Part shown: positions 14,980-47,511 of the stretch, piece by piece
Layout: every line of letters starts with the position of its first letter
Numbering within the stretch: position 1 is the first letter of the stretch
From: Octopus sinensis
Lineage: Eukaryota
Assembly (NCBI RefSeq): GCF_006345805.1
Contig: NC_043007.1
Span: forward strand, 8,246,001 to 8,310,000
Direction: 5' to 3'
Length of the DNA stretch: 64,000 nt
The notes under the pieces: generated by a model
What the model saw: the letters and a program-made list of their open reading frames with translations, nothing else
Database searches by the model: none
Told to the model about the DNA's origin: nothing
Program-made: the position numbers and the translations under genes

Positions 14980-15127
14980 ACGCACGCACGTCTTTCCTTT
15001 CACTTTCTCTTCTCTTCTTCCAGTGTTTTCATTCTTCTCTCAAAACGATCCATTTTGTCTCGTGTTTTTCTTAACCTGAATTCTTTCATTTTCTTTCTCC
15101 CTTTTTTCTTCTGATTTGACTTGAAAG

Positions 15128-15188
15128 AAGCAAAACGCGAGCAAAACCTCTCCGAATGCTGGACTTTCTACTCTCCCTGTGAAGCTAT
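15128..15188 (+). other. VASH: Putative non-coding 5' exon of vasohibin (3' boundary defined by a U12 donor; 5' boundary uncertain)
   Basis: Perfect U12 donor GTATCCTTTT at 15189 matching a U12-like branch/acceptor TTCCTTGAT...AACAG at 20511-20532. Confidence 0.45.
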
Positions 15189-16684
15189 GTATCCTTTTAA
15201 TAATAGATTCATTCTTTGTTCTGGTTTCGAATCTCACTGTTGACGACTTTGTCTTTCCTCTTTCCGAGTTTTAATTAAGTATTTTATAAAAGAATTTTTT
15301 TTTCCTTTTCTTTTTGAGATAAAATTATAACCGCCCTCGAAATACTGGTTTTATGGGTCGATATAAATTTACTGTCCACTTCCTTCAAAAAACCCTGGGG
15401 GCGGGAAGGGTTTTTATTTTTATTTAGTTGCTATGGAAGAAGTCAAGTAGAAAACATATTTTATGTTCTGATCAATTTAATTTTAAATAAGAACTTTTCG
15501 CATATCAGGGAGGGGTTCGATCTTTATTTCCTAAACCACTGGTCAGTAGAATGGTCAGTATTGACGCCTGTGGTGGATGGGGGGGCCTGTATAGCTATCC
15601 AAAGGATTTTGAGCATTAAGCATGTGTGATTTAATAAGGAATTGAATTTGGAAGAGCGTCGGTAATTAAGGTTAAAAACTCACTAATTGCCAACCAAATA
15701 CCGATGCAATAACTAGCGCTCACCAAACACATATTTCCCATTAAATATTCCAGCTACATCGATATAACATGACTGAATTTTTATTGTTTTGTATCAATTT
15801 CGTTAAGTTTTTTCTATAAATTTTTTCAAATATTTCTTATTAAAATATACTAAAAATACAGAAGAAGCAGAGAATTATTGATTTTAAATGTAGAAATTTT
15901 TTATTAATGACATTTTAATTTCTCTTAAAAATTTACCGGATAGAGTTTGATAAGTTATCGGCATACCTATACATGTTTGTCCCCCCCCCTCATCTCACCT
16001 GCAATTTTGTTTCCTCATAACTTTCGGTGAATATTTATAGTGACATTTTCTTCAAATACCTTTCAAAGGGTGTACATTCTGTTTATACTGGAACCTGTTG
16101 TGAAAAAATATTTTTCGTGGGTAGGGAGAAGAATTTGGGGGTAATTCACATGAGTTGACTTTATGGCATATCTTTCGGGAAAATGGGTTTTTGTTAATGA
16201 AATTTTGTTTTCATATACCTTTTGAACGGTGTAGATTTCAATTGTAGCGGATTTTAAAGTGGAAAAAAGAAAAGTGGCAGACGCACACACACAAATACAT
16301 ACAGACACACATCACATAATTTTTTCAAAATTTTAAGTTTCATTTTGCAGATACGTATGTGATGGGCATCGGTAGGAGGAAACAAAGTCGATGTGCTCAG
16401 CTATCGACGATTCCATGAAGGGCTCAATATCATAAGACGTTTAAGGCGGCGAGCTGGCAGACACGTTGGCACGCTGGGTGAAATACTTAGCCGTATTTTA
16501 TCTGTCTTTACATTCTGAGTTCCAATTCCACCGAGGTCGACTTTGCATTTCATCCTTTCGGGGTCGATAAATTACGTACCAGTTGCGTACTGGGGTAGAT
16601 CTAATCGACTGGCCCCCTCACCAAAAATTTCGGGCTTTGTGCCTAGAGTAGAAAAGAATATTATAAGACGTTTTCCTACACCTA

Positions 16685-16722
<38 letters not shown>

Positions 16723-16728
16723 TTCTCT

Positions 16729-16785
<57 letters not shown>

Positions 16786-16919
16786 CACTGTAAATCTGTT
16801 GCTTCTGTACCTATTCTGTGAGTTAACAAGGAAGAAAGGGAGAGGAGTTGGATTTTTTGTTTTGTTTTGTTTATCTTTTTATATATATCTTTAATTGTAA
16901 ACGTATTTGTGTATGTAAA

Positions 16920-18090
16920 TTTATATGATAGTATGATCATGAACTAATTGTATACAGTGCTCGGGTGCACTACAACCAGTGGCCGACTGGCCGGGTTGCC
17001 AGCTTGCATGATGGCAAATGGGCCCCTATGCCATTGGAATCCATATATGGGGGCCCATGTTAGTATCTAAGGGGCCCATCCCCTCAAGTTTGAGAATTTT
17101 TTATTCACTCTTGGAAGAATGCATTATTTATTTCAGCCTGGCTTTGTTTGGAGACAGTTGGGAAGAATAGTTTTAACAAAAAAAAATTAAGTGATAGCAT
17201 TGTAGTCGTGGAGGGGACCCCTTGTAGTTGTGGATGGGCACCCTGGTAGCTGCAGGTGAGCCCCCTTGTAGTTGCGGGTGAGACCCCTAGTAATTGCAGG
17301 TGGGCACCCTTGTAATTGCAGGTGGGCCCCCTTGTAGTTGCAGGTGGGCCCTGTTGCAGTTGTGGGTAATCACCCTCCCTTGTAGTTGCAGGTGGGCCTC
17401 CTTGTAGTTGTGGGTGGGCCCTCTTAGTTGCAGGTGAGCCCCCTAGTAGTTGCAGGTGGGCCCCCTTAGTCTCCTGACAACCAATATTTTTAGACCCAGT
17501 CCACCACTGACTACAACTCATCAAGTAAAGTAGCAAAAGGCACCGGAAGTGAATGACTCATTTTAAACAAAAATCTTTAAACAAGTTAAAACAAAAGGAC
17601 TCCATTTGCTGCGGAAATTTGGAAGAATGTAATGCTCCGACAACTAACAACTGGTGTGGATAACTTGTTCCATGCTTCAGCAATTCTGAGAGTGAAAAAA
17701 TGTTTCTGAGAGTCAAGGATGCTGTGTTGTATTTTGATTTTGTGAGCCACGAGTGTTTGACGGATTGAACTCTAAAAGATGCCCAAGGTTGTTGTTGTTG
17801 TTGCTGTTGGGAAGATGGTTGTTGATCTTGAGAGTGTCTACCAAGTCAGTTGCCAGATGCCAGGGCTTTAATCTGTCCATGCCCAGAGAAGCAGGACGTT
17901 CAGATTATGGCAGATGTCTGGTTCCACATTTCTGAACATTTTCCAGAATACTGATATGCTGAGCAAGAGAAGAGTTCCAGACTGGTGATGCCAACTGTGG
18001 ACGTTCCGTAGTCCTACACAGCTTTAAACAGGTTGCTGGAGAGCAGCTGGCAAAAAGCACCTTAGAGAGTAACATGTGCGACGTCTTTAC
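16920..18090 (-). mobile_element. CR1-like LINE 3' remnant, interrupted by the hAT MITE
   Basis: KHFFTLRIAEAWNKL motif on -; the 3' region matches the plus-strand copy at 48610-49060. Confidence 0.65.
16977..17509. mobile_element. Non-autonomous hAT element (MITE) with internal ~21-bp minisatellite
   Basis: 14-bp TIRs CAGTGGCCGACTGG / CCAGTCCACCACTG; perfect 8-bp TSD ACTACAAC (16969-16976, 17510-17517); about 12 degenerate ccttgtagttgcaggtgggcc units at 17215-17470. Confidence 0.9.
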
Positions 18091-18103
18091 AGGTGCATGG
18101 GAA

Positions 18104-18149
<46 letters not shown>

Positions 18150-19424
18150 TGGCATAATTTTGTATGTGTAAAATAAATAGTTCAGTCTATAAAGAGTAAA
18201 TCCTTTGTTAAGCTCTGTATGTGCACACATATTCATGTGTGTGTGTGTGTGTGTATACTGGTATGTAAGCATGTGTGGACGTTTGGATGTGTATATTTGG
18301 TGCTTATGTGTATGGATGTGTATGACTAGAGTTTGTGTGTGTGTGTACGTGTGTGTGTGTGTGTGTGTGAACCCAGCATGGAGTCAATAACTGACTAGCA
18401 TTAGTACTTAGTGACACAAATACTTGAGATGGTGAACAAGTGCTTTATAAGACAGCTTTGGGAAGTGATGGGCCTGTAGTTCTTGTCAGGACATGTTTTG
18501 GAAAGGGACAGAGGTGGCTCCTTTGATATCTCCCACAGCATTGTAAGTCCAAGAAAACAAAACCTAGCAGAATGCTTCCTGATAGAATAACAGGCTGTCA
18601 ATCAGCTTCTCTTCACTTTGAAGAGGCTGGATTTCCTGCAACCCCCTGCGGCTGGAATGCGCTTTAACTCATCTTGTATCACCTTTGCCACTAGATCGAT
18701 ATTGAAGAGGGATTCAGTGAAATATGGGAATGAACACCTTCACTCCCCACCCGGCTTTGTCATGAACACCCTCACCCCCCACCCGGCTTTGTCCCTCGAC
18801 TGAATCTCCATCTTTGTTTCATTTTCTTCTCTATTTCTGCACTTCAAAAATTGTATTTGCTTAACCCACCAAAATTCCCACATCATCTTAGGTTAAACAT
18901 TCAATTCAAATTTCAGTGACCTAATTTGGCTTTGACACAGGTATATCCCCAAGACACCTGTAAAAAAGAAAGCAGCTTCTTCGCTCTGTGGCTATGAGAT
19001 AGTTTACTTCCATCACCTTTTGTCAGCTTCCTTCTGCCAGCTTCAAATTTCACTGAGACTTAATTGTCACACACACACACACACAAACTTCTTTCTTGTG
19101 AGCCTGGAACCCTTTACTTTTCCTTTCACACATTTAATGGCAGACTACTAAGAGATATTCCATGCAAACAAACACTTGTTCACAACACAAATGTGTGTGC
19201 TTTCTTCCAAATTCTCTGTTGCTTCTCTCTGATTCAATCTGTACGATGCCAGCATGCAAAGCAGGCATTACAGGATTATGAAGAGGCAATAATTATAGAC
19301 TTTGTTACATTAATTTATTTCAATAATTCAGAAATTACTTATTACATTTCACTTGTTACACATATACTGTAAAGATTCAGAATAACTATATATTTAATAC
19401 AGTTCTATATTTAAGAGATGAGGA

Positions 19425-19752
19425 ATTATGTGCATTATTTACATTATTTACAATTCATGGATATTTGTCTCCATCTTGTTTGTTGCTAACACAACATTTC
19501 AGCTGATGTACCCTCCAGCCTTCATCAGGTGTCTTGGGGAAACTTTGAACCTGGGTTCTCATTCCTAAGACATTTTTCAATGTTATTATTATTATTATTA
19601 TTCAAGTCACTGCCTGGAATCAAACTCAGAATCTTAACCACTACGCCATATGCCAGTGGGACATATGGCGTAGTGGTTAAGAGTGTGGGCTACTAACCCC
19701 AAGATTCCAAGTTTGATTCCAGGTAGGGACCTGAATAATAATAATAATAATA

Positions 19753-19784
<32 letters not shown>

Positions 19785-19950
19785 AATAATAGTAACATCA
19801 AAAAATATCTTAGGAATGAGAACCAGGTTCGAAATTTCTCCAAGACACCTGAAGAAGGCTGGAGGGTATATCAGCCGAAACATTGTGTTAACAACAAACA
19901 AGATGAGGACAAATATCTGTCAAATGTAAATAATGTAAATGACGTAAATA
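19425..19950. mobile_element. Head-to-head inverted dimer of a tRNA-headed SINE with Penelope-like (hammerhead-core) tail
   Basis: About 19430-19651 mirrors 19661-19945; A box TGGCGTAGTGG and B box GTTTGATTCC; tail CTGAAGA-a-GGCTG..CAGCC-GAAAC. Confidence 0.75.
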
Positions 19951-20553
19951 ACTATATATTTGTATCTATAAACTACTCCAGCTTTAGACAAAATCCATCT
20001 CTAAACATAGCAGCCAGATACATCTCATTCACACATCATCATCACCATCATTGTCATCATCCTCATTTTGATGTTCACTTTTACATGCTTGCATGAGTTA
20101 GAAGGAGTTTATTGAGGCTGATTTGCCATGGCTGGATATGCTTCCTGTTGCCAACATCAGGCCTAAGAATATCTGCCACAACAAATTCTGCATGACCCAA
20201 GCAAACATGGAAAAGTGGACAATAAATGGCGGCGGCGGCGGTGGTGGTGGTGGTGGTGGTGGTGGTGTGGTGGTGGTGGTGGTGGTGGTGGTGTGGTGGT
20301 GGTGGTGGTGGTGGTAGTGGGGAAAAGGTTTTTCTCATTTAACGAAATTCATGTTCTGGAAGTTTTCCATATTTTGGAATTTCAATTAAAGGATTATCAT
20401 TTGTGATAAATTTGTGAACAAATTATGAATCAATGTGTATTTTTGTTTCTTTTTGTTTTTGCTTTTATCTAATGCTAGTTTTTAATGCTGCCATATAAAA
20501 GAACAAAGGATTCCTTGATCTGCATTTAACAGATAAGTCAAGCAATTGGCTGA

Positions 20554-20766
20554 ATGTCAGTTCGTAAGGCAAGTTTACCTTTAAGGCAACACAAACACAA
20601 CGATAAACTGAAGCACAATGCCGGCTGTTTCTTTTGGGTCAACCGAAGTGGTTTGCCACTGAAAGAAGAAACATGGGAAAGAATGTGGTCATTTGCTGCC
20701 AAGCAACATCCAGATGGAGAGAACATCATTGAAAGCATTAGAGTTCTTTGTGATAACCTTCCAAAG
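20554..20766 (+). CDS. VASH: Vasohibin (tubulinyl-Tyr carboxypeptidase) coding exon 1
   Basis: FWVNRSGLPLKEETWERMWSFAAKQHPDGE...LPK resembles human VASH1 [30 protein letters not shown]...LPK. ATG is preceded by an in-frame TGA; donor AAG|GTAATT. Confidence 0.95.
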
Positions 20767-20874
20767 GTAATTATTATATAATTCTCTAATATTTGTGAAT
20801 TCTTCAAAAATGAAAGATTAATTTAAAACCTGTAACAGCAGAAATGTTGTGGGCTTGACAATGGGGAGGTAAAT

Positions 20875-23800
20875 GTAATAGCTGCTGTTGTGGGAGTGTC
20901 ATGAAGTTGACAGTGGGAGGATCAAGGAATAGCTGCTACAGTGGGAGTGTCATGAAGTTGGCAGTGGGAGGATCAAGGAATAGCTGCTGCAGTGGGAGTG
21001 TCAGGAAGTTGGCAGTGGGAGGATCAAGGAATAGCTGCTGCAGTGGGAGTGTTATGAAGTTGACAGTGGGAGGATCAAGGAATAGTTGCTGCTGTGGGAG
21101 TGTCATGAATTTGGCTGTGGGAGGATCAAGGAATAGCTGCTACGGTAGGAGTGTCATGAAGTTGACAGTGGGAGGATCAAGGAATAGCTGCTGCAGTGGG
21201 AGTGTTATGAAGTTGACAGTGGGAGGATCAAGGAATAGTTGCTACAGTGGGAGTGTCATGAAGTTGGCAGTGGGAGGATCAAGGAATAGCTGCTACAGTG
21301 GGAGTGTCATGAAGTTGGCAGTGGGAGGATCAAGGAATAGCTGCTGCTGTGGGAGTGTCATGAAGTTGGCAGTGGGAGGATCAAGGAATAGTTGCTGCTG
21401 CAGTGGGAGTGTCATGAAGTTGGCAGTGGGAGGATCAAGGAATAGCTGCTACAGTGGGAGTGTCATGAAGTTGGCAGTGGGAGGATCAAGGAATAGCTGC
21501 TGCTGTGAGAGTGTCATGAAGTTGGCAGTGGGAGGATCAAGGAATAGCTGCTACAGTGGGAGTGTCATGAAGTTGGCAGTGGGAGGATCAAGGAATAGCT
21601 GCTACAGTGGGAGTGTCATGAAGTTGGCAGTGGGAGGATCAAGGAATAGCTGCTGCAGTGGGAGTGTCATGAAGTTGGCAGTGGGAGGATCAAGGAATAG
21701 CTGCTACAGTGGGAGTGTCATGAAGTTGGCAGTGGGAGGATCAAGGAATAGCTGCTGCTGTGAGAGTGTCATGAAGTTGGCAGTGGGAGGATCAAGGAAT
21801 AGCTGCTACAGTGGAAGTGTCATGAAGTTGGCAGTGGGAGGATCAAGGAATAGCTGCTACAGTGGGAGTGTCATGAAGTTGGCAGTGGGAGGATCAAGGA
21901 ATAGCTGCTGCAGTGGGAGTGTCATGAAGTTGGCAGTGGGAGGATCAAGGAATAGCTGCTGCAGTGGGAGTGTCATGAAGTTGGCAGTGGGAGGATCAAG
22001 GAATAGCTGCTGCAGTGGCAGTGTCATGAAGTTGGCAGTGGGAGGATCAAGGAATAGCTGCTGCTGTGGGAGTGTCATGAAGTTGGCAGTGGGAGGATCA
22101 CGGAATAGCTGCTACAGTGGGAGTGTCATGAAGTTGGCAGTGGGAGGATCAAGGAATAGCTGCTGCAGTGGGAGTGTCATGAAGTTGGCAGTGGGAGGAT
22201 CAAGGAATAGCTGCTACAGTGGGAGTGTCATGAAGTTGGCAGTGGGAGGATCAAGGAATAGCTGCTGCAGTGGGAGTGTCATGAAGTTGGCAGTGGGAGG
22301 ATCAAGGAATAGCTGCTACAGTAGGAGTGTCATGAAGTTGGCAGTGGGAGGATCAAGGAATAGCTGCTGCTGTGGGAGTGTCATGAATTTGGCAGTGGGA
22401 GGATCAAGGAATAGCTGCTGTGGGAGTGTCATGAAGTTGGCAGTGAGAGGATCAAGGAATAGCTGCTACAGTGGTAGTGTCATGAAGTTGAGAGTGGGAG
22501 GATCAAGGAATAGCTGCTGCTGTGGGAGTGTCATGAAGTTGGCAGTGGGAGGATCAAGAAATAGCTGCTACAGTGGGAGTGTCATTAGGTTGACAGTGGG
22601 AGGATCAAGGAATAGCTGCTGCTGTAGGAGTGTCATGAAGTTGACAGTGGGAGGATCAAGGAATAGCTGCTGTTGTGGGAGTGTCATGAAGTTGACAGTG
22701 GGAGGATCAAGGAATAGCTGCTGCTGTGGGAATGTCATGAAGTTGGCAGTGGGAGGATCAAGGAATAGCTGCTGCTGCAGTGGGAGTGTCATGAAGTTGG
22801 CTGTGGGAGGATCAAGGAATAGCTGCTACGGTAGGAGTGTCATGAAGTTGGCAGTGGGAGGATCAAGGAATAGCTGCTGCAGTGGGAGTGTCATGAAGTT
22901 GGCAGTGGGAGGATCAAGGAATAGCTGCTACGTAGGAGTGTCATGAAGTTGACAGTGGGAGGATCAAGGAATAGCTGCTGCAGTGGGAGTGTTATGAAGT
23001 TGCCAGTGGGAGGATCAAGGAATATTTGCTGCTGTGGGAGTGTCATGAAGTTGGCAGTGGGAGGATCAAGGAATAGCTGCTGCTGCAGTGGGAGTGTCAT
23101 AAAGTTGGCAGTGGGAGGATCAAGGAATAGCTGCTGCTGCAGTGGGAGTGTCATGAAGTTGGCAGTGGGAGGATCAAGGAATAGCTGCTACAGTGGGAGT
23201 GTCATGAAGTTGGCAGTGGGAGGATCAAGGAATAGCTGCTGCTGTGGGAGTGTCATGAAGTTGGCAGTGGGAGGACCAAGGAATAGCTGCTACAGTGGGA
23301 GTGTCATGAAGTTGACAGTGGGAGGATCAAGGAATAGCTGCTACAATGGGAGTGTCATGAAGTTGGCAGTGGGAGGATCAAGGAATAGCTGCTGCAGTGG
23401 GAGTGTCATGAAGTTGGCAGTGGGAGGATCAAGGAATAGCTGCTGCAGTGGGTGTGTCATAAAGTTGGCAGTGGGAGGATCAAGGAATAGCTGCTACGGT
23501 AGGAGTTTCATGAAGTTGACTGTGGGAGGATCAAGGAATAGCTGCTGCTGCTGTGGGAGTGCCATGAAGTTGGCAGTGGGAGGATCAAGGAATAGCTGCT
23601 GCTATGGTAAGAGTGTCATGAAGTTGACAGTGGGAGGATCAAGGAATAGCTGCTACGGTAGGAGTGTCATGAAGTTGACAGTGGGAGGATCAAGGAATAG
23701 CTGCTACGGTAGGAGTGTCATGAAGTTGACTGTGGGAGGATCAAGGAATAGCTGCTGCTGCTGTGGGAGTGCCATGAAGTTGGCAGTGGGAGGATCAAGG

Positions 23801-24455
23801 AATAGCTGCTGCTGCTGTGGGAGTGTCATGAAGTTGGCAGTGGGAGGATCAAGTAATAGCTGCTACAGTGGGAGTGTCATGAAGTTGGCAGTGGGAGGAT
23901 CAAGGAATAGCTGCTGCTACAGTGGGAGTGTCATGAAGTTGACAGTGGGAGGATCAAGGAATAGCTGCTGCTGTTGTGGGAGTGTCATGAAGTTGGCAGT
24001 GGGAGGATCAAGGAATAGCTGCTACAGTGAGAGTGTCATGAAGTTGGCAGTGGGAGGATCAAGGAATAGCTGCTGCTACAGTGGGAGTGTCATGAAGTTG
24101 ACAGTGGGAGGATCAAGGAATAGCTGCTGCTGCTGTGGGAGTGTCATGAAGTTGACAGTGGGAGGATCAAGGAATAGCTGCTACAGTGGGGGTGTCATGA
24201 AGTTGACAGTGGGAGGATCAAGGAATAGCTGCTGCAGTGGGAGTGTCATGAAGTTGGCAGTGGGAGGATCAAGGAATAGCTGCTATGGTAGGAGTGTCAT
24301 GAAGTTGGCAGTGGGAGGATATAGGAATAGCTGCTGCAGTGGGAGGATCAAGGAATAGCTGATGCAGTGGGAGGATCAAGGAATAGCTGCTGCAGTGGGA
24401 GGATCAAAGAATAGCTGCTGCAGTGGGAGGATCAAGGACAGCTGCTGCAGTGGGT
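20875..24455 (+). repeat. Intronic minisatellite, 51-bp unit (48/54-bp variants), roughly 65-70 copies
   Basis: Unit gtcatgaagttggcagtgggaggatcaaggaatagctgctgcagtgggagt; generates the 681-aa and 471-aa repeat ORFs. Confidence 0.97.
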
Positions 24456-25638
24456 ATGACTCAGGTTGAAAGTGGGAGGATCATCAAATAGCTGTAGTAG
24501 TAGGAGTGGTAAGGCTTGAGAGTGGGAGGATAATGAAATTACAACAGCAATGGGAGTGTCAAAGATTGAGAGCGGGAGGATCATAGAAGAGCAGCAGCAG
24601 CAGTAGGAGTGATGGAGGTGGTGGGGAAGGAGAAGATTACAAAACAACATGAACTGCATAATTAATTAGATTCATTAGTTTGCAACTATTTCAACAAAAA
24701 CAAATGAAATAATACTATGCGATGCATACGACTCCATATTACCTGAGCATCATCATCATCATCATCATCATCATGAAGCTGGATCCTTATATTATACATT
24801 TATGTATGTATATATGTTGGACAAACGAGCCTTCTTTTACGTAGAAGAGTAGCGGTCCATAAAGAACAGATAAATCTCCCAGAATACCGTCAAATTCCAC
24901 TAAGTAGTCACATAGACTCGTGCGCTAGAGGCAAAAATCCTAAATTTCACATATTCCCTTTCTATCAATGTAAAGACGGAATCACTACACAAGAAAGAAT
25001 CAACAAGGAGAATCTTTTTATTGAAAAATTCCAAATGCATCTTAATATGCAAACTCCACGATGACCATACTCCTTTTTTCAACATCCTATCTGACAAAAA
25101 ATTGATATAAGCATCCTGTTTGACAAAAAGTTCATCATCCCAATTGAAGAGCATAAAATCCACAGAGTTGTCCCCCCTTACTCACAGGAACTGGATAACT
25201 CCTACTCCATTTCCTGTTTTGACACTCTTTTACCAAACACTTTAAACTAAGCACCACGTTTAATCACATGGATCCTGATCCTCCTAAGAAGTTTTTCCAA
25301 GGACTATTATTGAACTCTAAAAGCATAAAGACTCTACCATGTATTGGTATACTTATTTATTAATTTTTGTATATATGTATTATTATTTTTTTGAAAAAAA
25401 CATTGTAAATTTATTTTTTCCCCTTCCTCAATTTAAAAAAAAAATCTTTTCATCTTTAAAAAATCTTGAAACTTTGCCTTGCGATGAAAACCGGTCTGAT
25501 TTATTATTTTTTCTTTTTTAATTTTCCATACACCCATTTTTATTAAAATTTACTTTCAATTTAGCATCCTGCCTTATTATAATTTTTCCTCTCCTATCAT
25601 TTCTCCATGTGCAGTCAACACAACCCCACCATTTATTG

Positions 25639-28988: not shown

Positions 28989-29074
28989 ATTCCATTTCCG
29001 ACGTCAACCATACATTCTAATATGAGTGTCTACCAGAAGATAATTGAAATCCAGAAATACATAGAAGCTCTTGA
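28989..29074 (+). CDS. VASH: Vasohibin coding exon 2 (IPFPTSTIHSNMSVYQKIIEIQKYIEAL)
   Basis: Resembles IPIPSVP...LEAVQRYIRELQ; aacag acceptor; followed by U12 donor GTATCCTTT. Confidence 0.92.
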
Positions 29075-29879
29075 GTATCCTTTGTAGAAATTCAAAGAAA
29101 AATGGTATTCTCCATTTATCTATTTTTTTTTTTTGTGGTTTTGTCAGTAAAGAATGAAGGGCAATGTTGATGACTCTTTTACAAGATCCCAAAGACAAGT
29201 AGAGGGAAAGAAAGAAGAATTTGATATCTTTATATCGGAGACATGATCCAAATGTTTGAAACAAAATAGATTCTGCCACTCTGCTAAAAAAAATACCCAA
29301 GAATCAATCAGTGGTTTTAACCATTTTAATGCCAACCATCCTGAAACAAACACTTGAAGTGATCTTAATTAAAACCTTCCACAAAAATTTCATGTTAAAT
29401 TTGTTCTAAATACCAGCTTAAAATCAGCAAAGGTATTTTAATAAATCCTTCATTATATTTAAAATTAGCTGAAGCAGGGGTAGTGCATTCCAGCAGAAAT
29501 ATGGTAACAAAAGGATTAAAGTGATTTCAATTAAAACCTTCCTAAAGCTTGGGGTTAAAAATTTAAAACAAAAAATATTTACAGCAATCAAATAAATCAC
29601 TTCATAATTTTTACTTGTTTAATTTTTTTTTATCCAAAGTTATTGAGCCCATGTTTAACTTATTGGGGCCTTTTAGATTTAAAATGCCATTAAATTTAAT
29701 CAAGTCCCTCAGAATCTACTGAAACCCTTTTTAATTTCAGAGTCTCTTCAAATTGTTTCGAGCCCCTACAATTAACGGGACCCTCTAAATTATCTTCTTA
29801 TACTTCAAATAGTGCCTTTTTCAAAAATACTTTGAGCCTGTTTTCTTAGAATATAATTAGAGGGCAATCAACAGCTATG

Positions 29880-30075
29880 CATTATCTCAACAAAGTAACA
29901 TCAACTGTTTAGATGAAACATCTTTTCCAAAGTTGAAGAGAATAGAAGACCACTTGTGACCAACTCTCATTCAACAAAGTTGGGCTGCTCTTAGTATCAT
30001 GTGCATTGAAGCAGATAAACTCCATGAAAAAAGTTTTGATGACTTAATCAAAGCCTTTATTGTTTATAAATAAAT
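29880..30075 (+). mobile_element. hAT transposase C-terminal dimerisation-domain remnant
   Basis: ETSFPKLKRIEDHL*PTLIQQSWAALSIMCIEADKLHEKSFDDLIKAF resembles the ERSFSKLK..K..LRSTM.Q.RL..L..L.IE motif. Confidence 0.65.
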
Positions 30076-30610
30076 TTTAAAAATACAGTTTAATTTATTC
30101 TGTTCTTGGCTACAAATCTTATTATTATTTATTTTTCAGTAAAAACTGTGATCCCTAATTTTAGTTTTCTCAAACTATTCATATCTTTAAAAAACCTGCT
30201 CTTAATAATTGAATTTATTTATATTCTGTCAGTTTTTTTATGTGCAATATTTTATGTTGGTTTTTCATTTGTTCCTTAAATCCTGATCCTTTAGATCAAA
30301 CTGCATTTAGTTTTGCTGTTCAACTCTGTTCATACCGACCTGTAATGACCCTTTGCCATGTTGCAATTTAATGCTGTGATGCAGTCTTTTGGTTGTTTGG
30401 TTGCAGCAGCCAAATGCATTTATTAGTTTTGACATAATGAGATTATGATTGGCTTCAGAAATCTAAACAATTAAAAATAATGTATGCAAAACCGTAGGGG
30501 CACCCCAACCAAAACCCCCCCAAAAAAGGAAGCCTATTGGCCCCAGGATTCCAGCAGATCTAAATCTGCCACGTTTCAATATCCCTATTATTTTGCTTAA
30601 CTGACTTCAG

Positions 30611-30667
30611 ATACAATTATACGGGGACACAGTTTTTCCATATCCAGAAGTCTAAACCTCTTTGCTT
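30611..30667 (+). CDS. VASH: Vasohibin coding exon 3 (YNYTGTQFFHIQKSKPLC)
   Basis: Resembles YNHTGTQFFEIKKSRPLT; U12-like branch TTTGCTTAAC upstream; donor TT|GTGAGT. Confidence 0.95.
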
Positions 30668-30927
30668 GTGAGTTGGAACCATTTTGCTTCTGATTAATTC
30701 TTCTAATTACAATCAGGATATTGAGTCAGTCTTTTGTCTTTAATCTTTTATTCTTTCACTTGTTTCTGTCTATGACCATGCTGGGGCACTGCCTTGAAGG
30801 GTTTTAATCAAACCAATTAATACCAGTACTTACATTTTTTTATAAGCATGATACTGATTCTGTCAGTCTCTTTTGTCAAACCACTAAGTTACAGGGACAT
30901 AAACAAACCATACATATATATATACAT

Positions 30928-30996
<69 letters not shown>

Positions 30997-31000
30997 ATAT

Positions 31001-31290
31001 CACGTGACCGACCAGTCCATCAGATGTAGTTACACATCACTGGTCACAATGCGTTCGCATTGTTTTAGCCTTCGAATGAGGCCACCCCGCTGGCTAAGCG
31101 AGCAGGCCAACAGACGAAAGAGTGAGAGAAAGAGTGGTGAAAGAGTACAATCGGGATCACCACCCCCTGCCGGAGCGTCATGGAGCTTTTAAGTGTTTTC
31201 GCTCAATAAACACACACAACGCCCGGTCTGGGAATCGAAACCGCGATCCTATGACCGCGAGTCCGCTGCCCTAACCACTGGGCCATTGCA
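31001..31290 (-). mobile_element. tRNA-derived SINE
   Basis: Minus-strand head TGGCCCAGTGGTTAGG...GGTTTCGATTCC with Pol III A and B boxes; partial copy at about 10480-10605. Confidence 0.75.
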
Positions 31291-31428
31291 ACGAGGTAAA
31301 TACATATTTACCTGATATACGGAACAGCTGTAAACTTACACTAACATACTCTCATCTTAATTAATTAATTAATTAATGGCTTTATAACACCAAAGATCCA
31401 CTTCTCATTGTTATTTATTTCTCCATTT

Positions 31429-31432
<4 letters not shown>

Positions 31433-31479
<47 letters not shown>

Positions 31480-31495
31480 ATATATTATATATATA

Positions 31496-31526
<31 letters not shown>

Positions 31527-31528
31527 CA

Positions 31529-31589
<61 letters not shown>

Positions 31590-31640
31590 CACATACACAC
31601 ACACATATATATATATATATATACATATATATACATATAC

Positions 31641-31675
<35 letters not shown>

Positions 31676-31723
31676 GATGTATATATGTGTATATATCTAT
31701 ATATATATATATATATAATATAT

Positions 31724-31754
<31 letters not shown>

Positions 31755-31755
31755 G
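31433..31755. repeat. (CT)n-(TA)n tract
   Basis: Directly visible. Confidence 0.9.
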
Positions 31756-31849
31756 TGGGCAGCTGGGTGCAATATAAACCGTATAGGCAAAATTTAGTCA
31801 TCACTAATTGTGACCATATGTGCTACAAACACATATATTGCTAGAAATA

Positions 31850-33120
31850 GCAGTTAAACCACTCATAGCTGCATGAAAACACATTTATATATACCAAGAG
31901 GGTAGATAACTGCCCCAGGATTGAAGCAAAACTGGAACACTGGACTGCACACTTTGCATCATGTGCTCCAGCTGAGGCAGTGCCCATGCTGTTCCATGAG
32001 CACCTATTTGAATCTAGCATGATGTTCCCTAATGCCAAATGTAGTGGACCAAAGACGTCACATTGTGTCTTTCTAGGATCCTGAAAGAAAATTTGGGCTT
32101 ATTTAAGCACAGCTCAAAGGGAACCTCCATTACTCCAATATATTTCTTTGTATCATTAGTGCTGCTGGTGTTGTTGCTGCTGCTGCTATCATTGCCATTC
32201 CTGCTGTTACTGGTAGACACCAACTCTGTCTCTTAGACCATGGCATCGGAGTTCCATTGACCTCCTTCTGAGAATTCACTGTTAACCCTACTTGAGCATC
32301 CTGCCTCAGTTGAGAGTTTAGGGGATTCACAAAAATCTTTTTAACACTGGGCACACTGCTGAATGAGACCCTTACCATGTGTCTATTAAATAATCCCCTG
32401 TACTTGAGAAGGGTGGGATAAACCAAATGACCTTCTGGTAGCACTTTCTTTTGTGGGTGTTAGAGCTTGGCATAAAGGTGTCCTTAAACCCATTGGCTGC
32501 CAAAGCCCCATTGTAATAGGGGACCACACCATTAAAAATCTCTTTATTCAAAGACGGGTTCAAAATACTCTTACTGACAACCTTCGCCAGGTTCTTCAAC
32601 TCAAAAGGTTGTTGGTAGATGGCTGTGTCAATGTACAATGGCAATTCATTTGGTTTTCAGTAGGGCCTGTATGAACTGGTACCCAAATGGAGTGTAACAT
32701 CTAAAACGGTAACTATGTTAAGATTGGTCTCAATTGTAGTTTGAAGACCAAGGGGTCTAAGTGTGTGAATTAGGTCCTTCCTAAGCCTATCTAGGGTGTG
32801 CCCATTTGTACCTCTAGAAATGGCTAAAGCGCTATCTCTGCATAGGCCAAAATGGACTGATGGGATGTTAAAAGTGTCCAGTATATACAATCTTGTGTGA
32901 TTGCAGATGTCCATTCTGTTGAATGCTCCCATTGCCCCCTCGAAGGAGCCTATTGGGTCAGTTATTATGACCCAGGCTAAACCTTTGTTGAACAGCAGGG
33001 TTTTCTTAGCATGTATAATTACATCTGAATCTCTATCACTAATGTCAATAAATTCCCTAGGGAACATAAGAGTTGAGAGTTTTGTATTTATTGGAGTATC
33101 GTGTTTAGTGGAGTAATTTG
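31850..33120 (-). mobile_element. Penelope-like retroelement (Naiad/Chlamys-like), decayed RT and linker
   Basis: IIHAKKTLLFNKGLAWV...F..AMGAF...GLCRDSALAI..LDRLRKDL...IETNLNIVTVLDVTLHL..SYRPY*KPN.LPLYI...EIFN..VPYYNGAL...KVIWFIPPFS. Confidence 0.8.
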
Positions 33121-33464
33121 GAGAACATCGTGTGAAGACGTATAGAATGTATATATCCAACATATAGAAGCATATAAAAAGTATGAATGTCTTCATTGCC
33201 TCATTTATATCCTTGTATACGTTGGATTTACAGATTCCACAAAGCGAGGATAGACGCAACTGTCTTCACACGATGTTCTTCAAATTGAAGCTCCAATAAA
33301 TACAACTCTCAACGATCTCAATGACTTCCTACAACTTCCACGAGTTCTCTACGATTCCCACCTCTTCTCTCTCATCTCTGACTCTCGCCACAACACTGGG
33401 TTAATCAGGTGGCACTTGGGGTTGGAGGTGAAGTTTGGTTTGGGATCTTTGATGGTGATAAAAG

Positions 33465-33531
<67 letters not shown>

Positions 33532-33653
33532 ATAAAGAGAGAGAGAGATTACATATGTGTGTGTGTGTGTGCGTGAGTGTGCAGGTGTTCACACACATGT
33601 ATGTATGTATATATTTATATGTATGTATGTGTATATATGTTCCAATCTTTCAG

Positions 33654-33728
33654 CTTAATGGAAACAGCCAAAGAAATCATGAAGGAATGCCTTCCAATCA
33701 AATGCCTCGAAGCTGTCATTCTTGCTGT
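33654..33728 (+). CDS. VASH: Vasohibin coding exon 4 (LMETAKEIMKECLPIKCLEAVILA), catalytic Cys
   Basis: LPIKCLEAVIL is identical to human VASH1; ctttcag acceptor; U12 donor GTATCCTTTT at 33729. Confidence 0.97.
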
Positions 33729-35316
33729 GTATCCTTTTGCTCAAACATTTAAACATTTGTTTTCTGAAAATTCTCCAAAGGAAATCCAAATAATTTCTAA
33801 GTACTTTTCCACAACTTTGCTGTTGTAGAAGGGGTTTTTTTGTCATCATTTTGGAGGAGTGTACGTCATTTTTATGACCATATTTATTGGGGAGGAGTCT
33901 TTTTAATTATCATTTTTAGAGAGTTTGCCATTTTCATTACCATTTTAGACCACTCCTCTTCAGCACATTTTTTTTATCATGTTCTTTTATGGTTTTACCT
34001 TTTTTCTTTAGTTATCATGAGTGGTGTGAAGGTGCGTGGCTTAGTGGTTTGGGCGTTCAGCTCAGAATCATAAGGTCATGAGTTCAATTCCCGGAGACAC
34101 ATTGTGTCCTTGAGCAAGACACTTTATTTCACATCCACTCCAGTCCACTCAGCTGGCAAAAATGAGTTGTACCTGTATTTTAACCTGTAGTTCTCATGGA
34201 GATTCAGCCTGACATGGAGTGGGACAGGGCTGGCAATAAAATTACAAAACGAAAACAGGCAAAACAATATAAGGGCTTACTGTACAGGATCATTGGCATA
34301 ACCTGCTAGAAATAACAGCTAAATTTCCCTTAAATTCAAATGTCTGCACTGGATGGTTTGAATTGACAACCTTCATGCCCTAATTTTTTTTATGTCCCTT
34401 CATCCTGGATAGGAAAACCTTTGTATTTAAGGTAAGGTGACTCTTCTAGATGGCTAGGTGAGCCGTAGCAATGAGGAATTAAGTATTCTAGTAGCAATGG
34501 AGCATTTATATCTGTAGTATCCAACCAGGGATCTTCAGACCCCTTGCAATCTCCTATGGGGGTCTATGATCTGAGTCAAAAATTTCTTGAGTGAACAGAC
34601 CTTTCGAAATATAGGGTCTCTGAGAAAAGCCATTTCCATAAAAAGAGATCCTTTGCAGTGAAATTATTGGGAACCATGCAACCACTTGATTTTCTATAAA
34701 TAGCAGCTAAATTTCCCTCACATCACTTCCTCTTGTTTCAAAACAAGAAGGAGGACACAGTGGATGAAGTAGTTGTAGATGTAGAAAGAGTTGAGATGGT
34801 CATGAATGGAATGCCTTTGATCATAGATCAACTCAATCAAGGTTGACTAAACTCAGGCAAAATTACAACAGCAAGAAATGCTCTGCCCAGAAACACCCTG
34901 TGATGCTTGTCTTGGACTTGAACTCACAACCCATGAACAGGTTGTCCAATCACTTTATCCACTCAGTTATTATGACCTCTGCTCATTAATGACATATTCA
35001 AGAAAATTAATTCGAGCACAACCTGGAATCAAAACAGAAGCTTGTGGGTTCAACTCACAACCTTTTGATCATCAACCCAACGACAGAAACACTCAGCCAC
35101 ATGCCTGCACTTCTAGACAATGTTTCCATGACTCTCTTATCCTATGTATCCTTCCATTTCTCATAATAGTAAGATATGATTATTGAGAGATTTAATAGCT
35201 ATTTCTAGCAGACAAAGCAACCACATAGTGGTTTCCTCCATTACCCATACTTAAATATCAATACTTTTAAAATAACCAATCAATAAAATTGAAGAATTTC
35301 CTGAACGAGACCAAAG

Positions 35317-35488
35317 TTATATGACAAATGGGATTCCAACTCTTGAAAGGTTTTCAATTGGGTTCAAGACAGTCTTCAAAACTGTGGAATATCGACATGT
35401 TGTCTTGGGTATCTACTACAAAGGGTCTTACGGTGCTCTTGGCATGAGCCGGAGGGAAAAACTCATGTACAAGCCACTAGTTTATTCG
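35317..35488 (+). CDS. VASH: Vasohibin coding exon 5, catalytic His and GMSRR motif
   Basis: YMTNGIPTLERFSIGFKT...YRHVVLG...YGALGMSRREKLMYKP; U12-like branch TTTCCTGAAC with no polypyrimidine tract; donor TCG|GTAAGA. Confidence 0.97.
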
Positions 35489-37359
35489 GTAAGAGGATTT
35501 TCTTTTTTTATCTTTTGACCATTTTCTTTGATGATTTATAGCAGTGATCCCCAGCCTTTTCACTACCGAGGACCCCTTTTCTTTAAATGAGTTTTCCCAT
35601 GGACCCCAGGATATTGAAAGGTCTGTCAGCTTATCATGTTCACAGACCCCCAGTACAACCTTTGCAGATCACTAGGGGTCTATGGACCTCAGGTTGGGAA
35701 CCCCCAATTTATAGCTTCATCTGCTGATCTGTCCCTGGCAGAATTTCCACTGCCTCTGGCACAAATTTTCCACACAGCATCATCATTGGTATCTCTTCGT
35801 GAGTGAATTTCGTTCCTTTGAATTTAGTTTTTATAAACTATAGGTTGTCTGCAAAAGCCTTTTTTTTCCGCTCTCTCAAAAAAAAAACGAAAATTGGTAA
35901 ATCAGACAAGAGCGACTGAACGGAACCATCCATGAATCCACTTGTAGGTGCATAACTGTGTGTTACTGATGCATACCACCATGCATTTGCAATGTGTATG
36001 TGCATAGCTGTGCATTGCTGATGCAGGCCACTATGCACAAATATGTTGACACTAAAATGAGAGGAGACTCTGGCAGATATGTGAGGCAACCCTTATCACC
36101 CTACACTAGAGATGCAAAAAAAGGGAAAAACTTATTGATAATAGATTGGTAAACGTGCGTTGATATGTGCTGCAGGCTGGTTCGCATCCACTGCTGTGTT
36201 GGTTTGCATTCGTTGGTGTGTCAATAAACATCCATCTGTGTTTCGTGTTTATGTGTGTGTTTATATGCAAGTGTGTAGCATTGTATGTTGGTGGAGGAAT
36301 TCCTTATTCTTTATTCACTTGAATTACTAGAAAGAATGGTGAAGAGATTTGTAAAATTATAATTTGATTCCCACTGATGAGGTCATGGATGGCAACGAAA
36401 GGATTCTGACAAGCGTGGCTGATTGATTTATTGTCCAAAGGATTAAACAAATAATCGATTGGTTAAACAACTAACTAAATCTCTAGCAGACAGGTCTAAC
36501 CAATATGGAGGAAGAGCAATTCCCAGAAAGCAGCCAGTCTGTTGGTTCCTGTCAGCGCCAGATGCGAGCTGTCTACTCTCTTGTTTGCAATATAACAGAC
36601 ACAGATATTCTTTCCTACTCTAGGCACAAGGCCCAAAATTTTAGTGGAGGGGGGGTCTAGTCGATTAGATTAATCCCAGTATGCAACTGGTACTTAATTT
36701 ATCAACCCCAGAAAGGGTGAAAGACAAAGTCGACCTTGGCGGAATTTGAACTCAGAACGTAAAGACAGACAATGTTTCTTCCAGCTTGCCACCTTATAAC
36801 AGACACAGATCATCATCATCGTTTAACGTCTGCTTTCCTTGCTAGTATGGGTTGGACGATTTTGACTGAGGGCTGGCGAACCAGATGGCTGCACCAGGCT
36901 CCAATCTTGATCTAGTAGGGTTTCTACAGCTGGATGCCCTTCCTAACGCCAACCACTTTGAAAGTGTAGTGGGTGCTTTTTACATGCCACCAGCACAGGG
37001 GCCAGTCAGGCAGTACTGGCAACGACCTCACTCAAATCTTTTTACACATGCCACTGGCACAGGTGACAGTAAGGCGATGCTGGTAATGATCACGCTTGAA
37101 TGGTACCTTTTACGTGCCACCTACACGGTTAGCCGCTCTGGCAACAATCACGCTCAGACACAGATATTGCATCATAAACTTGCTGGAGGATGTGTTCTCC
37201 TGGGGTTAAATCTTTTTCATTGCATGACTTCTCGTCAGGAACCTTACAAACCAAATAAAAAAATTTGAAACTTCAGAATCTTTTATAAGTTTTAGATTTT
37301 GAGTTGAAACATTGCATTTCAATAAAAACAATAAAAACAACCACCTTTATTACTTTCAG

Positions 37360-37405
37360 AGTTTACATGAATTGATATTGAATTACCAGATGTCTTACAA
37401 AGACT
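37360..37405 (+). CDS. VASH: Vasohibin coding exon 6 (SLHELILNYQMSYKD)
   Basis: Resembles TLSELVLDFEAAYGR; tactttcag / T|GTAAGT; phases fit. Confidence 0.9.
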
Positions 37406-40152: not shown

Positions 40153-40232
40153 ATGGTCACAAAATGCTAAAACTTCACATTGGTTTACCAATTACCCATA
40201 ATCCTACATCATGTAGAAGTATAGTATGGAAG
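40153..40232 (+). CDS. VASH: Vasohibin coding exon 7 (GHKMLKLHIGLPITHNPTSCRSIVWK)
   Basis: Resembles WHVLKKVKLGQSVSHDPHSVEQIEWK; catccag / AAG|GTAAGA. Confidence 0.92.
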
Positions 40233-41282: not shown

Positions 41283-41366
41283 GGAATTGTCATCAACATG
41301 CAAAGCACGGATCCAACCGATCTCTTCAGGAAAGTTCAGAAACATGCTCGTTTGATTAGAAAATCT
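41283..41366 (+). CDS. VASH: Vasohibin coding exon 8 (GIVINMQSTDPTDLFRKVQKHARLIRKS)
   Basis: Resembles HSVLDVERLGRDDFRKELERHARDMRLK; taccag / TCT|GTAAGT. Confidence 0.88.
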
Positions 41367-42657: not shown

Positions 42658-43902
42658 TTGGGTTGTCCAGAAAGTTCATGCCGATTTATAGTATCTTACA
42701 TGGATGAGTCCGTAACATGGATGAGTCCGTAAAATAGGATTTGACTACACCTCCATTTAGAGCACAGTTTAAGCTATCTTTTCATGGAAGAAGTTTTACA
42801 TTCCTATAACCTGTGTTAATTCTGTAACCCTTTAAAATGGGAGATAAGAAAGTTCATTTTCGGCACTTGGTGCTTTTCCTTTTCTGTAAAGGGAAAAATG
42901 CCTCACAAGCAACCAAAGAAATATACACAGTTTACGGCAATGTTTCTTTATCCGAAAGAACTGTACGGAAGTGGTTCGCAAGGTTCCGAGCTGGAGATTG
43001 TAGCCTTATTGATAAAGAGCGATCAGGCAGACCATCCACTACAGATGATGACCAAATCAAGTCATTAATTGAGAATAACCCACATTGCACAACCCGAAAA
43101 TTGGCAGAAAGCCTCAACATATCAAAATCCATCGTTCATGAGCACCTTGTAAAGCTTGGGTACACAAATCGCTATGATGTTTGGGTACCACATGAGTTGA
43201 GTGAGAAGAACCTTTTGGATCGCATTTCCATCTGTGATTCGTTTTATAAACAGAATGAAAACGCGCCTTTTTTAAAGCAAATTGTGAAAGGTGATGAGAA
43301 ATGGATTATCTACCGAAATGTTCAGAGAAAGCGATCCTACAATAAGCGTGTCTTCACCCTAAAAAGTCTTGCTTTGTGTCTGGCGAGATTGGAAAGGAAT
43401 TCTGTACTATGAGCTTCTCCCAAGTAACCATACATTTAATTCTGAGAAATACTGCACACAACTGGACGAGTTAAAAGCAGCAATTCAAGAGAAACGTCCA
43501 GAATTGGCCAACAGGAAGGGTGTTGTTTTCCAACATAATAATGCAAACCGCACGTTTCTTTGGGAACGAGACAAAAATTGCTGCAGCTCGGCTGGGATGT
43601 GTTACCCCACCCTCCATATTCACCAGATATTGCTCCTTCGGACTTCCACTTATTCAGGTCTCTGCAGAATAGTCATAATGGTAATTTCAATTCCTTGGAT
43701 GGCGTAAAAAGATACCTTGATAAATTATTTGCTATGAAACCACCTCAATTCTGGGAAGAGGGTATTTTCAAGTTAAAGGAAAGATGGAGATGCATTGTGC
43801 AACAAAATGGTTCATATTTGGTTGATTAAAAATGTAATGGCAAATATTTATTGACCTTTTTCTTTCCTTTAAAAATCGGCATGAACTTTCTGGACAACCC
43901 AA
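42658..43902 (+). mobile_element. Mariner (DD34D, mellifera-subfamily-like) transposon, near full length, inactivated
   Basis: Perfect 30-bp TIRs TTGGGTTGTCCAGAAAGTTCATGCCGATTT, TA flanks. Transposase in three frames (42837-43829) with WVPHEL, GDEKW, YSPDIAPSD; second catalytic Asp reads N (QHNNA). Confidence 0.95.
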
Positions 43903-44318: not shown

Positions 44319-44368
44319 GGAAGTCCAGGCAGAAATGTACGCAAGTCAAATAATTTCTCACAACCAAA
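44319..44368 (+). CDS. VASH: Vasohibin probable coding exon 9 ([16 protein letters not shown])
   Basis: Strong ttcttcttttcag acceptor and AA|GTAAGC donor; phase-compatible; basic unstructured tail with little homology support. Confidence 0.7.
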
Positions 44369-47456: not shown

Positions 47457-47511
47457 GATTACCTTTCCTTGGCTGCCAGCAAAGAAAAACCCAAAAAGAA
47501 CAACAGTTTAG
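47457..47511 (+). CDS. VASH: Vasohibin probable terminal coding exon ([17 protein letters not shown])
   Basis: Strong T10-ctacag acceptor; phase fits exon 9; TAG at 47509-47511. Total spliced CDS 918 nt = 305 aa. Confidence 0.65.

What the first reader, a model, noticed from the sequence alone, without database searches (positions are those of the whole stretch)
29075..35316. Two U12-type (minor spliceosome) introns in the vasohibin CDS
Seen: introns 29075-30610 and 33729-35316 both start GTATCCTTT, are phase 2, and have a U12-like branch sequence (TTTGCTTAAC about 30592-30601; TTTCCTGAAC about 35297-35306) roughly 10 nt before the AG. The second has a purine-rich acceptor. Known: this is the U12 GT-AG signature, such introns are rare, and genes with several are rarer. 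My recollection that vertebrate VASH genes carry minor introns at these positions needs checking. One sits nine codons after the catalytic Cys, so minor splicing could rate-limit detyrosinase output.
Basis: partly seen in the sequence, partly recalled or inferred. Interest (0 to 1): 0.7.

Follow-up and report, generated by a model that had tools for sequence, protein, structure and literature searches.

The report
Octopus vasohibin's three minor introns
An octopus gene for a tubulin-trimming enzyme carries three introns with the signals of the rare "minor" splicing machinery, two at the same places as in the human genes and one extra before the start codon, and database isoforms from octopus to human join the two shared ones so that the catalytic residue is skipped, which would give an inactive enzyme.

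Summary
Observation confirmed. The window is an octopus vasohibin gene (spliced model identical to NCBI Octopus protein P0002), not a vertebrate one. Both introns start GTATCCTTT, are phase 2, and have branch sites complementary to the genome's own U12 snRNA; U11, U12, U4atac and U6atac genes are present. Junction 33728^35317 stands in transcript-like contigs of 2 of 4 runs. The introns lie at the positions of the two minor introns already listed for human and mouse VASH1/VASH2, so the core is known and old. Added here: (1) a third U12-type intron in the 5' UTR (15189-20532), spliced in 2 of 4 runs and not listed for human; (2) first donor joined to second acceptor removes 44 residues with the catalytic Cys in frame; this form is annotated in two octopus species, a sea urchin, sharks and human VASH2 (311 aa), but I did not see it in octopus contigs; (3) a probable dicyemid contig in the same assembly holds both introns as 24-26 nt major-type introns. 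Rate-limiting control is untested. The scan's notes had no vasohibin finding.

The parts
15024..15188 (+). 5' UTR exon (3' end exact; 5' end uncertain, 15024 is a U2-like acceptor, one contig has 229 nt upstream of the junction)
   Evidence: loose ends in X2 and X17 equal window 15159-15188
15156..15182 (+). 8-codon upstream ORF ending 6 nt before the UTR minor donor
   Evidence: sequence; use untested
15189..20532 (+). third U12-type GT-AG intron, in the 5' UTR (5344 nt): donor GTATCCTTTT, branch box TTCCTTGAT at 20511-20519, branch A about -15
   Evidence: spliced in contigs of 2 of 4 runs
20533..20766 (+). first coding exon, ATG at 20554 directly after an in-frame TGA
   Evidence: P0002 starts here
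28989..29074 (+). coding exon 2 (86 nt)
   Evidence: (loose ends behind 20766 read its first letters)
29075..30610 (+). U12-type GT-AG intron, phase 2, in codon Glu100 (human VASH1 Gln133); branch box 30592-30601
30611..30667 (+). coding exon 3 (57 nt; Tyr101, substrate loop)
33654..33728 (+). coding exon 4 (75 nt) with catalytic Cys136 (codon 33703-33705; human C169)
33729..35316 (+). U12-type GT-AG intron, phase 2, in codon Val144 (human VASH1 Ile177); branch box 35297-35306; a nearer AG 4 nt behind the box is passed over
   Evidence: joint 33728^35317 in X2 and X4
29075..35316 (+). composite U12-to-U12 intron of the skip isoform (removes 132 nt of exon, 44 residues)
   Evidence: model equals NCBI P0001 letter for letter; same deletion in P0016; not seen in contigs
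35317..35488 (+). coding exon 5 (172 nt; His171, Ser188, Arg189, Leu193)
37360..37405 (+). coding exon 6
40153..40232 (+). coding exon 7
41283..41366 (+). coding exon 8
44319..44368 (+). coding exon 9
47457..47511 (+). last coding exon to the stop codon
   Evidence: 305 aa product equals P0002

Best explanation
This is the single octopus vasohibin (tubulin detyrosinase) gene; its two coding introns carry U12-type signals at the same positions as the known minor introns of human VASH1/VASH2, a third such intron lies in the 5' UTR, and all three are likely removed by the minor spliceosome as old, mostly constitutive introns. Shown: signals, positions, two of the three junctions, presence of the four minor snRNA genes. 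Inferred: U11 (then U6atac) pairs with donor +3..+10, U12 pairs with the branch box and bulges the branch A, and the 3' AG is chosen by distance (12-15 nt) without a pyrimidine tract, which explains the purine-rich acceptor and the skipped nearer AG. Because both coding introns are U12-type and phase 2, the first donor can also be joined to the second acceptor, deleting 44 residues with the catalytic Cys; I read this skip as a real but minor side product of that geometry that yields a dead, probably SVBP-poor and unstable protein, with regulation possible but not shown.
For: Donors: U11 5' end pairs 6.5-8.5 of 9 positions with the three donors against 2-4.5 for the other seven introns; duplex energy with U11 -7.2 to -7.7 against +0.6 to -3.3 kcal/mol (top 0.8-1.5% of 6590 GT sites). 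Branch boxes score 7 of 8 against the genome's U12 in all three, against 3.5-6 in the other seven; 28 of 6485 AG sites reach 7. U12, U11, U6atac, U4atac found over cut-off. Junction 33728^35317 in X2 and X4; 15188^20533 in X2 and X17. Model equals P0002. One X17 contig has 436 nt behind exon 1, exactly the sum of exons 2-6 of the inclusion path (arithmetic, letters not seen). Human/mouse VASH1 and VASH2 each have two minor introns, with exon ends GCA|, ACA|, CAT| that fit Gln133 and Ile177; both VASH2 introns are retained more in U4atac-mutant cells (delta PSI 0.11 and 0.21), VASH1's second slightly (0.025). Skip form: 31 of the 120 listed clusters of a skip-shaped search, human NP_079025.2, and listed as U12 intron chr1:213134597-213145921.
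Against: No intronIC or PWM score. Free duplex energy with U12 did not separate the classes (a U2 intron gave the best value, -9.9), and a first fixed-register score with a misplaced bulge ranked the UTR intron low (6 of 11); the separation rests on the 8-nt register. Each branch box has a departure from perfect pairing. X1 and X6 showed nothing on exons 4-5. Runs are only guessed to be RNA and are contigs at depth 2-4 except X17. Dependence on the minor spliceosome is not shown for octopus; human VASH1's first minor intron did not change significantly with U12, U4atac or U6atac morpholinos (p 0.34, 0.90, 0.45). Calling the skip a side product is a judgement: its recurrence across phyla also fits a function.
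Confidence: 0.72

Rival explanations
1. The minor introns form a regulated off-switch for tubulin detyrosination: the state of the minor spliceosome, or of exon definition across exons 3-4, decides between the active enzyme, the Cys-less skip form and retained or intron-terminated forms, and the 5' UTR intron adds a throttle in octopus.
For: The exact skip recurs in records of two octopus species, a sea urchin (Diadema setosum X2), three sharks (VASH1), teleosts, frogs, reptiles, birds and mammals; its junction residue varies D/H/Q as a composite codon should. It deletes C169, K168, K145/K146/R148, Y134 and part of the SVBP interface (PMC6937246 passages). Human VASH1B shares only residues 1-176, so it ends inside the second minor intron; it is inactive, lowers detyrosination and is regulated by VEZF1 (PMC7708047 passages). 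Three separate minor introns in one gene are rare (human: 105, 20, 3, 1 genes with 2-5, overlapping in 85 of 129). One X4 contig runs 32 nt into the UTR intron.
Against: No levels, tissues or protein data here. In-frame skipping follows from equal phase and needs no selection; U12 introns avoid phase 0 anyway. Only the inclusion path was seen in octopus contigs (46 loose-end rows not shown). The search was built to enrich skip forms, and many rows are Ensembl-type models that may be projected from human; 6 of 120 rows show other partial deletions. Larue and Roy argue that most minor introns evolve neutrally. The probable dicyemid gene keeps both positions without U12 signals.
Confidence: 0.22
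2. The skip isoforms are annotation products (projection of the human model or rare mis-splicing kept by deep RNA-seq), with no biological weight.
For: Not seen in 4 octopus runs; several records come from UniRef only; inclusion contig at depth 239 runs through without a break (arithmetic in 74).
Against: Human NP_079025.2 is a RefSeq NP record; NCBI models of two octopus species and an urchin are far from human; the current O. bimaculoides model XP_052827975.1 is itself the skip form. Contigs drop rare variants.
Confidence: 0.15
3. The introns only look like U12 and are spliced by the major spliceosome.
For: GT-AG ends are shared by both classes; the first acceptor (TGACTTCAG) could serve U2.
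Against: U1 pairing is poor at these donors (5-5.5 of 11 against 6-9 for the others); three exact 9-mers at exon ends; orthologous human introns respond to U4atac mutation.
Confidence: 0.03

Closest known systems
Minor introns of human and mouse VASH1 and VASH2 (Olthof et al. 2019, PMC6717393, supplementary rows; Cologne et al. 2019, PMC6800510, supplementary rows)
   Same: Two GT-AG U12-type introns per gene, GTATCCT donors, at Gln133 and Ile177 (VASH1 numbering), bracketing the 44 residues with the catalytic Cys.
   Different: Octopus has one gene and a third U12-type intron in the 5' UTR; the human lists hold 3 entries for VASH1 and 4 for VASH2, none upstream of the first coding minor intron.
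Human VASH2 311-aa isoform (NP_079025.2; U12 intron chr1:213134597-213145921 in PMC6800510 Table S3)
   Same: First minor donor joined to second minor acceptor, residues 123-166 lost, no KCLE motif: the same event as octopus P0001/P0016.
   Different: In my 10 paper searches no text linked this isoform to minor splicing, to loss of the catalytic Cys or to invertebrates; octopus use is known to me only from NCBI models.
Human VASH1B (PMC7708047, PMC5710674; passages)
   Same: An inactive vasohibin that arises at the second minor intron.
   Different: It is made by intronic polyadenylation under VEZF1 and G4 DNA; the paper does not mention U12 (0 occurrences); no such form was tested in octopus.
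Regulated U12 alternative splicing: SRSF10, prospero, MAPK8/9, TMEM87, CENATAC (review PMC8329584, passages)
   Same: Minor splice sites decide between productive and other isoforms.
   Different: Those are U12 against U2 competition; here both sites of the alternative intron are U12-type. Regulation is shown there and not here.

Membership tests
U12-type (minor) GT-AG intron | 5' splice site RTATCCTTT, complementary to U11 and U6atac | tested here: met
   all three donors GTATCCTTT; pairing with the genome's U11 and U6atac
U12-type (minor) GT-AG intron | branch site near TTCCTTRAY, complementary to U12, close to the 3' end | tested here: met
   7 of 8 in fixed register, branch A at -12, -13, -15; 28 of 6485 AG sites as good; free-energy version did not discriminate
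U12-type (minor) GT-AG intron | no polypyrimidine tract needed | tested here: inconclusive
   pyrimidine share -20..-4: 0.65, 0.71, 0.53 against 0.53-0.88 in the seven U2 introns; clear only for 33729-35316
U12-type (minor) GT-AG intron | removed at exactly these ends | tested here: met
   33728^35317 and 15188^20533 in contigs; 29074^30611 only through identity with P0002 and contig length
U12-type (minor) GT-AG intron | host genome encodes U11, U12, U4atac, U6atac | tested here: met
   Rfam matches over cut-off, best E 4e-15, 5e-24, 1e-11, 2e-21
U12-type (minor) GT-AG intron | intronIC or PWM score in the U12 range | not testable with these tools
   no intronIC or published matrix at hand
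U12-type (minor) GT-AG intron | splicing depends on minor snRNPs | not testable with these tools
   octopus untested; human orthologues partly
Vasohibin (tubulinyl-Tyr carboxypeptidase) | Pfam PF14822 and likeness to VASH1/VASH2 structures | tested here: met
   3 of 4 exons scanned pass the cut-off; E 5e-79 to VASH1
Vasohibin (tubulinyl-Tyr carboxypeptidase) | catalytic Cys, His, Ser/Leu and active-site Lys, Arg | tested here: met
   C136, H171, S188, L193, K135, R189, Y101
Vasohibin (tubulinyl-Tyr carboxypeptidase) | partner SVBP | tested here: inconclusive
   PF15674 found nothing in G000, and nothing in the controls either
Vasohibin (tubulinyl-Tyr carboxypeptidase) | detyrosinase activity | not testable with these tools
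   inferred from homology

The most novel reading that the evidence does not exclude
Since the bilaterian ancestor, two minor introns bracketing the vasohibin active site have served as a splice switch that turns tubulin detyrosination off: minor-donor-to-minor-acceptor skipping makes a Cys-less protein in octopus, urchin, sharks and human VASH2 (the 311-aa form), VASH1B ends inside the second of them, and octopus has added a third minor intron in the 5' UTR. Minor-spliceosome state would then set microtubule detyrosination, with a direct test in U4atac disease cells and neurons.
Probability: 0.22. Interest if true: 0.75.

Novelty: new member of a known kind. Interest (0 to 1): 0.4.

Why it matters
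The finding as given mainly extends two catalogued human minor introns to a mollusc; Octopus sinensis is also among the species of a public minor-intron survey whose database I could not open. What deserves a look: a spliced minor intron in a 5' UTR, a class of which Larue and Roy write that almost nothing is known; and the point that the common 311-aa VASH2 isoform and its invertebrate counterparts are U12-to-U12 skips without the catalytic Cys. That matters for anyone who expresses or measures VASH2 isoforms, and gives a testable link between minor-spliceosome disorders and tubulin detyrosination.

Tried and rejected
Alternative donor GT at 33727 and nearer AG at 35309-35310: no open frame, and contigs use 33728^35317. 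Free RNA duplex energy for branch sites: no discrimination. First fixed-register score had the bulge misplaced and is superseded (then 51). Second vasohibin match in G000 is not an octopus paralogue by its make-up. SVBP search: nothing rang anywhere, no evidence; no complex was folded. AlphaFold model of the full protein from 11 sequences was weak in the region of interest (mean pLDDT 60.6; residues 101-132 under 50) and is not used; the skip form was aligned but not folded. Run search: no holder is on record as RNA; only contigs, so no retention or skip shares. X1 and X6 gave no cover on exons 4-5; no skip joint could show on the stretch laid and no loose end at 35317 was among the 18 of 64 rows shown. 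Niemela 2014 supplements: no VASH rows in 2 files, one file not searched. Ten paper searches gave no text on vasohibin minor introns or on the content of the 311-aa isoform; most subscription journals are not in the library. CAT9 in Olthof's table is a cryptic exon, not the skip.
Full report
Question.

The gene. Ten coding exons (20554-20766, 28989-29074, 30611-30667, 33654-33728, 35317-35488, 37360-37405, 40153-40232, 41283-41366, 44319-44368, 47457-47511) give a 305-residue protein that equals P0002 letter for letter. P0002 is named as Octopus sinensis XP_029643118.1 and O. vulgaris CAI9729607.1, so the window is octopus DNA. Three of four exons scanned pass the Pfam Vasohibin cut-off; the protein aligns to human VASH1 at E 5e-79 with C136 on C169, H171 on H204, S188 on S221, L193 on L226. 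The exon-5 search found this locus and one other match in G000, dealt with below.

The observation. Both introns are as described. GTATCCTTT occurs three times in the window on both strands, 0.41 expected, 2 of 100 shuffles reaching three. The count alone is modest; the placement is not: all three matches begin an intron of this gene. At the shuffle rate per GT, two of ten introns would start so with p about 2e-7 and three with p about 3e-11. The second intron cuts the eighth codon after the Cys.

Class. The genome encodes U12, U11, U6atac and U4atac over the Rfam cut-offs; U1 and U2 were fetched for comparison. With these RNAs, the three donors pair with U11 at 6.5-8.5 of 9 positions against 2-4.5 for the other seven introns, and with U1 at 5-5.5 of 11 against 6-9; duplex energies with U11 are -7.2 to -7.7 kcal/mol, reached by 56-96 of 6590 GT sites. 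For branch sites, free duplex energy did not separate the classes and a first register had the bulge misplaced. With U12 nt 18-25 and a bulged A, the three introns score 7 of 8, the other seven 3.5-6, and 28 of 6485 AG sites reach 7. The branch A lies 12-15 nt from the end. In the 33729 intron an AG four bases behind the box is passed over, in line with choice of the 3' site by distance (the minimum-distance rule is recalled). intronIC was not available.

Splicing. The run search listed 24 runs, none on record as RNA; I laid five of them, all contigs. On 33645-35600, X2 and X4 join 33728 to 35317 (GT..AG, 70-75 letters on the short side); X1 and X6 show nothing on these exons. On 20325-20870, X2 and X17 have loose 5' ends that read exactly window 15159-15188, X1 has 12 unprinted letters there, and X4 runs 32 nt into the intron at depth 2.5. 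So 15189-20532 is a spliced intron. It ends 21 nt before the ATG, which follows an in-frame stop, so it is a 5' UTR intron; an 8-codon uORF ends 6 nt before its donor. It is supported by identity with P0002 and by one X17 contig (depth 239) with 436 nt behind exon 1, the sum of exons 2-6 on the inclusion path and not an exon end on the skip path (arithmetic only).

What is known. Olthof et al. 2019 (PMC6717393; supplementary rows and passages) list two minor introns each for human and mouse VASH1 and VASH2, with exon ends GCA|, ACA| and CAT| before GTATCC; these fit Leu-Gln133 and Gly-Ile177, which align to octopus Glu100 and Val144. Cologne et al. 2019 (PMC6800510; supplementary rows, passages; file 4 not searched) list the same introns and show more retention in U4atac-mutant cells for both VASH2 introns (0.11, 0.21) and slightly for VASH1's second (0.025). 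Olthof et al. 2021 (PMC8034651; supplementary rows) show no significant change of VASH1's first minor intron with morpholinos. Their lists hold no VASH minor intron upstream of the first coding one. Larue and Roy 2023 (PMC10639083; passages, supplement search) include O. sinensis and O. bimaculoides, note that almost nothing is known of UTR minor introns, and argue for mostly neutral evolution; their database may already hold these introns.

The skip. P0001 (O. sinensis isoform X2, 261 aa) equals the model with exons 3 and 4 left out, that is donor 29075 joined to acceptor 35316. O. bimaculoides has both forms, 322 and 278 aa. The block is 44 residues in 118 of 118 stored proteins that hold both anchor motifs, of 128 stored. 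A profile without the block returned 388 proteins, 120 listed; 31 of the 120 have exactly this deletion: octopus, the urchin Diadema setosum, shark and baboon VASH1, and VASH2 of fishes, frogs, reptiles, birds and mammals. The search was built to enrich them, so this is no frequency; the full-length profile listed 1 of 120, and 6 of the 120 rows show other partial deletions. Cluster members include human NP_079025.2 (311 aa, KTLH|YLTN), and Cologne's table lists its intron, chr1:213134597-213145921, as U12-type. The deleted part holds C169, K168, K145/K146/R148, Y134, H136, F141 and A164, needed for catalysis, substrate and one of two SVBP contacts (PMC6937246, passages), so the product would be inactive and likely unstable. 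Human VASH1B keeps residues 1-176 only, so it ends in the second minor intron; it is inactive and regulated (PMC7708047, PMC5710674, passages). I saw no skip in octopus contigs, which drop rare forms.

A second vasohibin in the assembly. G000:C9530 holds a gene with six introns of 22-27 nt at the octopus positions and phases; the two at the U12 positions start GTAAGT and GTAAAA. The 60 kb around it have CpG observed/expected 0.91 and no long TA or CA runs, against 0.42 and many in the window. Dicyemids live in octopus kidneys and have a mean intron size of 38 bp (PMC6736024, passages). I read the contig as a parasite's, probably a dicyemid; earlier notes of this scan say the same of other pieces. 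If so, both positions were kept and both changed from minor to major type, which shows that the enzyme does not need minor introns everywhere.

Mechanism and verdict. Shown: three U12-type introns, two junctions, orthology of the coding pair, the skip in annotations. Inferred: removal by the minor spliceosome through U11/U6atac and U12 pairing; inactivity of the skip form. Untested: rate limitation and regulation. Equal phase makes the skip in-frame without selection, so I rate it a side product (0.72 for the whole reading) over a conserved off-switch (0.22). The finding as given is a new member of a known kind. The UTR intron and the cross-phylum skip lift it a little: interest 0.4. Other papers seen in passages only: PMC7367187, PMC8329584, PMC4033919; PMC4066798 in the listing and a supplement search without result.

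Noticed in passing
G000:C9530:70400-71115 (L017-L018), minus strand: Second vasohibin with 22-27 nt introns at conserved positions on a CpG-rich, microsatellite-free contig: probably dicyemid DNA in the assembly; the two U12 positions carry major-type donors there.
   Followed up: partly
G000, 43 places: U6atac gives 43 matches over the cut-off among 46 scored candidates, spread over many contigs, against 1-5 for the other minor snRNAs: likely a burst of retrocopies.
   Followed up: no
L003 (C6303), L007 (C1794), L012 (C11297): Weaker U12 and U11 matches and a U6atac match lie on small unplaced contigs; some might be the parasite's own minor snRNAs.
   Followed up: no
window 15156-15182: 8-codon upstream ORF ending just before the UTR minor donor; could lower translation or invite decay.
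   Followed up: no
window 20877-24508: 51-bp minisatellite of about 70 copies (91% alike) in the first coding intron, 110 nt behind the donor.
   Followed up: no
window 52916-53992, minus strand: Last exon of a convergent neighbour with an exonuclease/endonuclease/phosphatase domain (PF03372); looks like an Angel/CCR4-type gene (name recalled).
   Followed up: partly
window 42828-43830 and 44848-45522: Mariner/Tc1-type transposase remnants in introns 8 and 9 of the gene (PF17906, PF13358).
   Followed up: no
window 54730 to at least 59500: Multi-kilobase (GAT)n satellite.
   Followed up: no
P0173-P0175, P0185; PMC6800510 Table S3: Carnivore VASH2 models have 2 extra residues at the second minor intron, and human VASH2 has a further listed U12 donor (chr1:213140439) for the same acceptor: more alternative use of this intron.
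   Followed up: no
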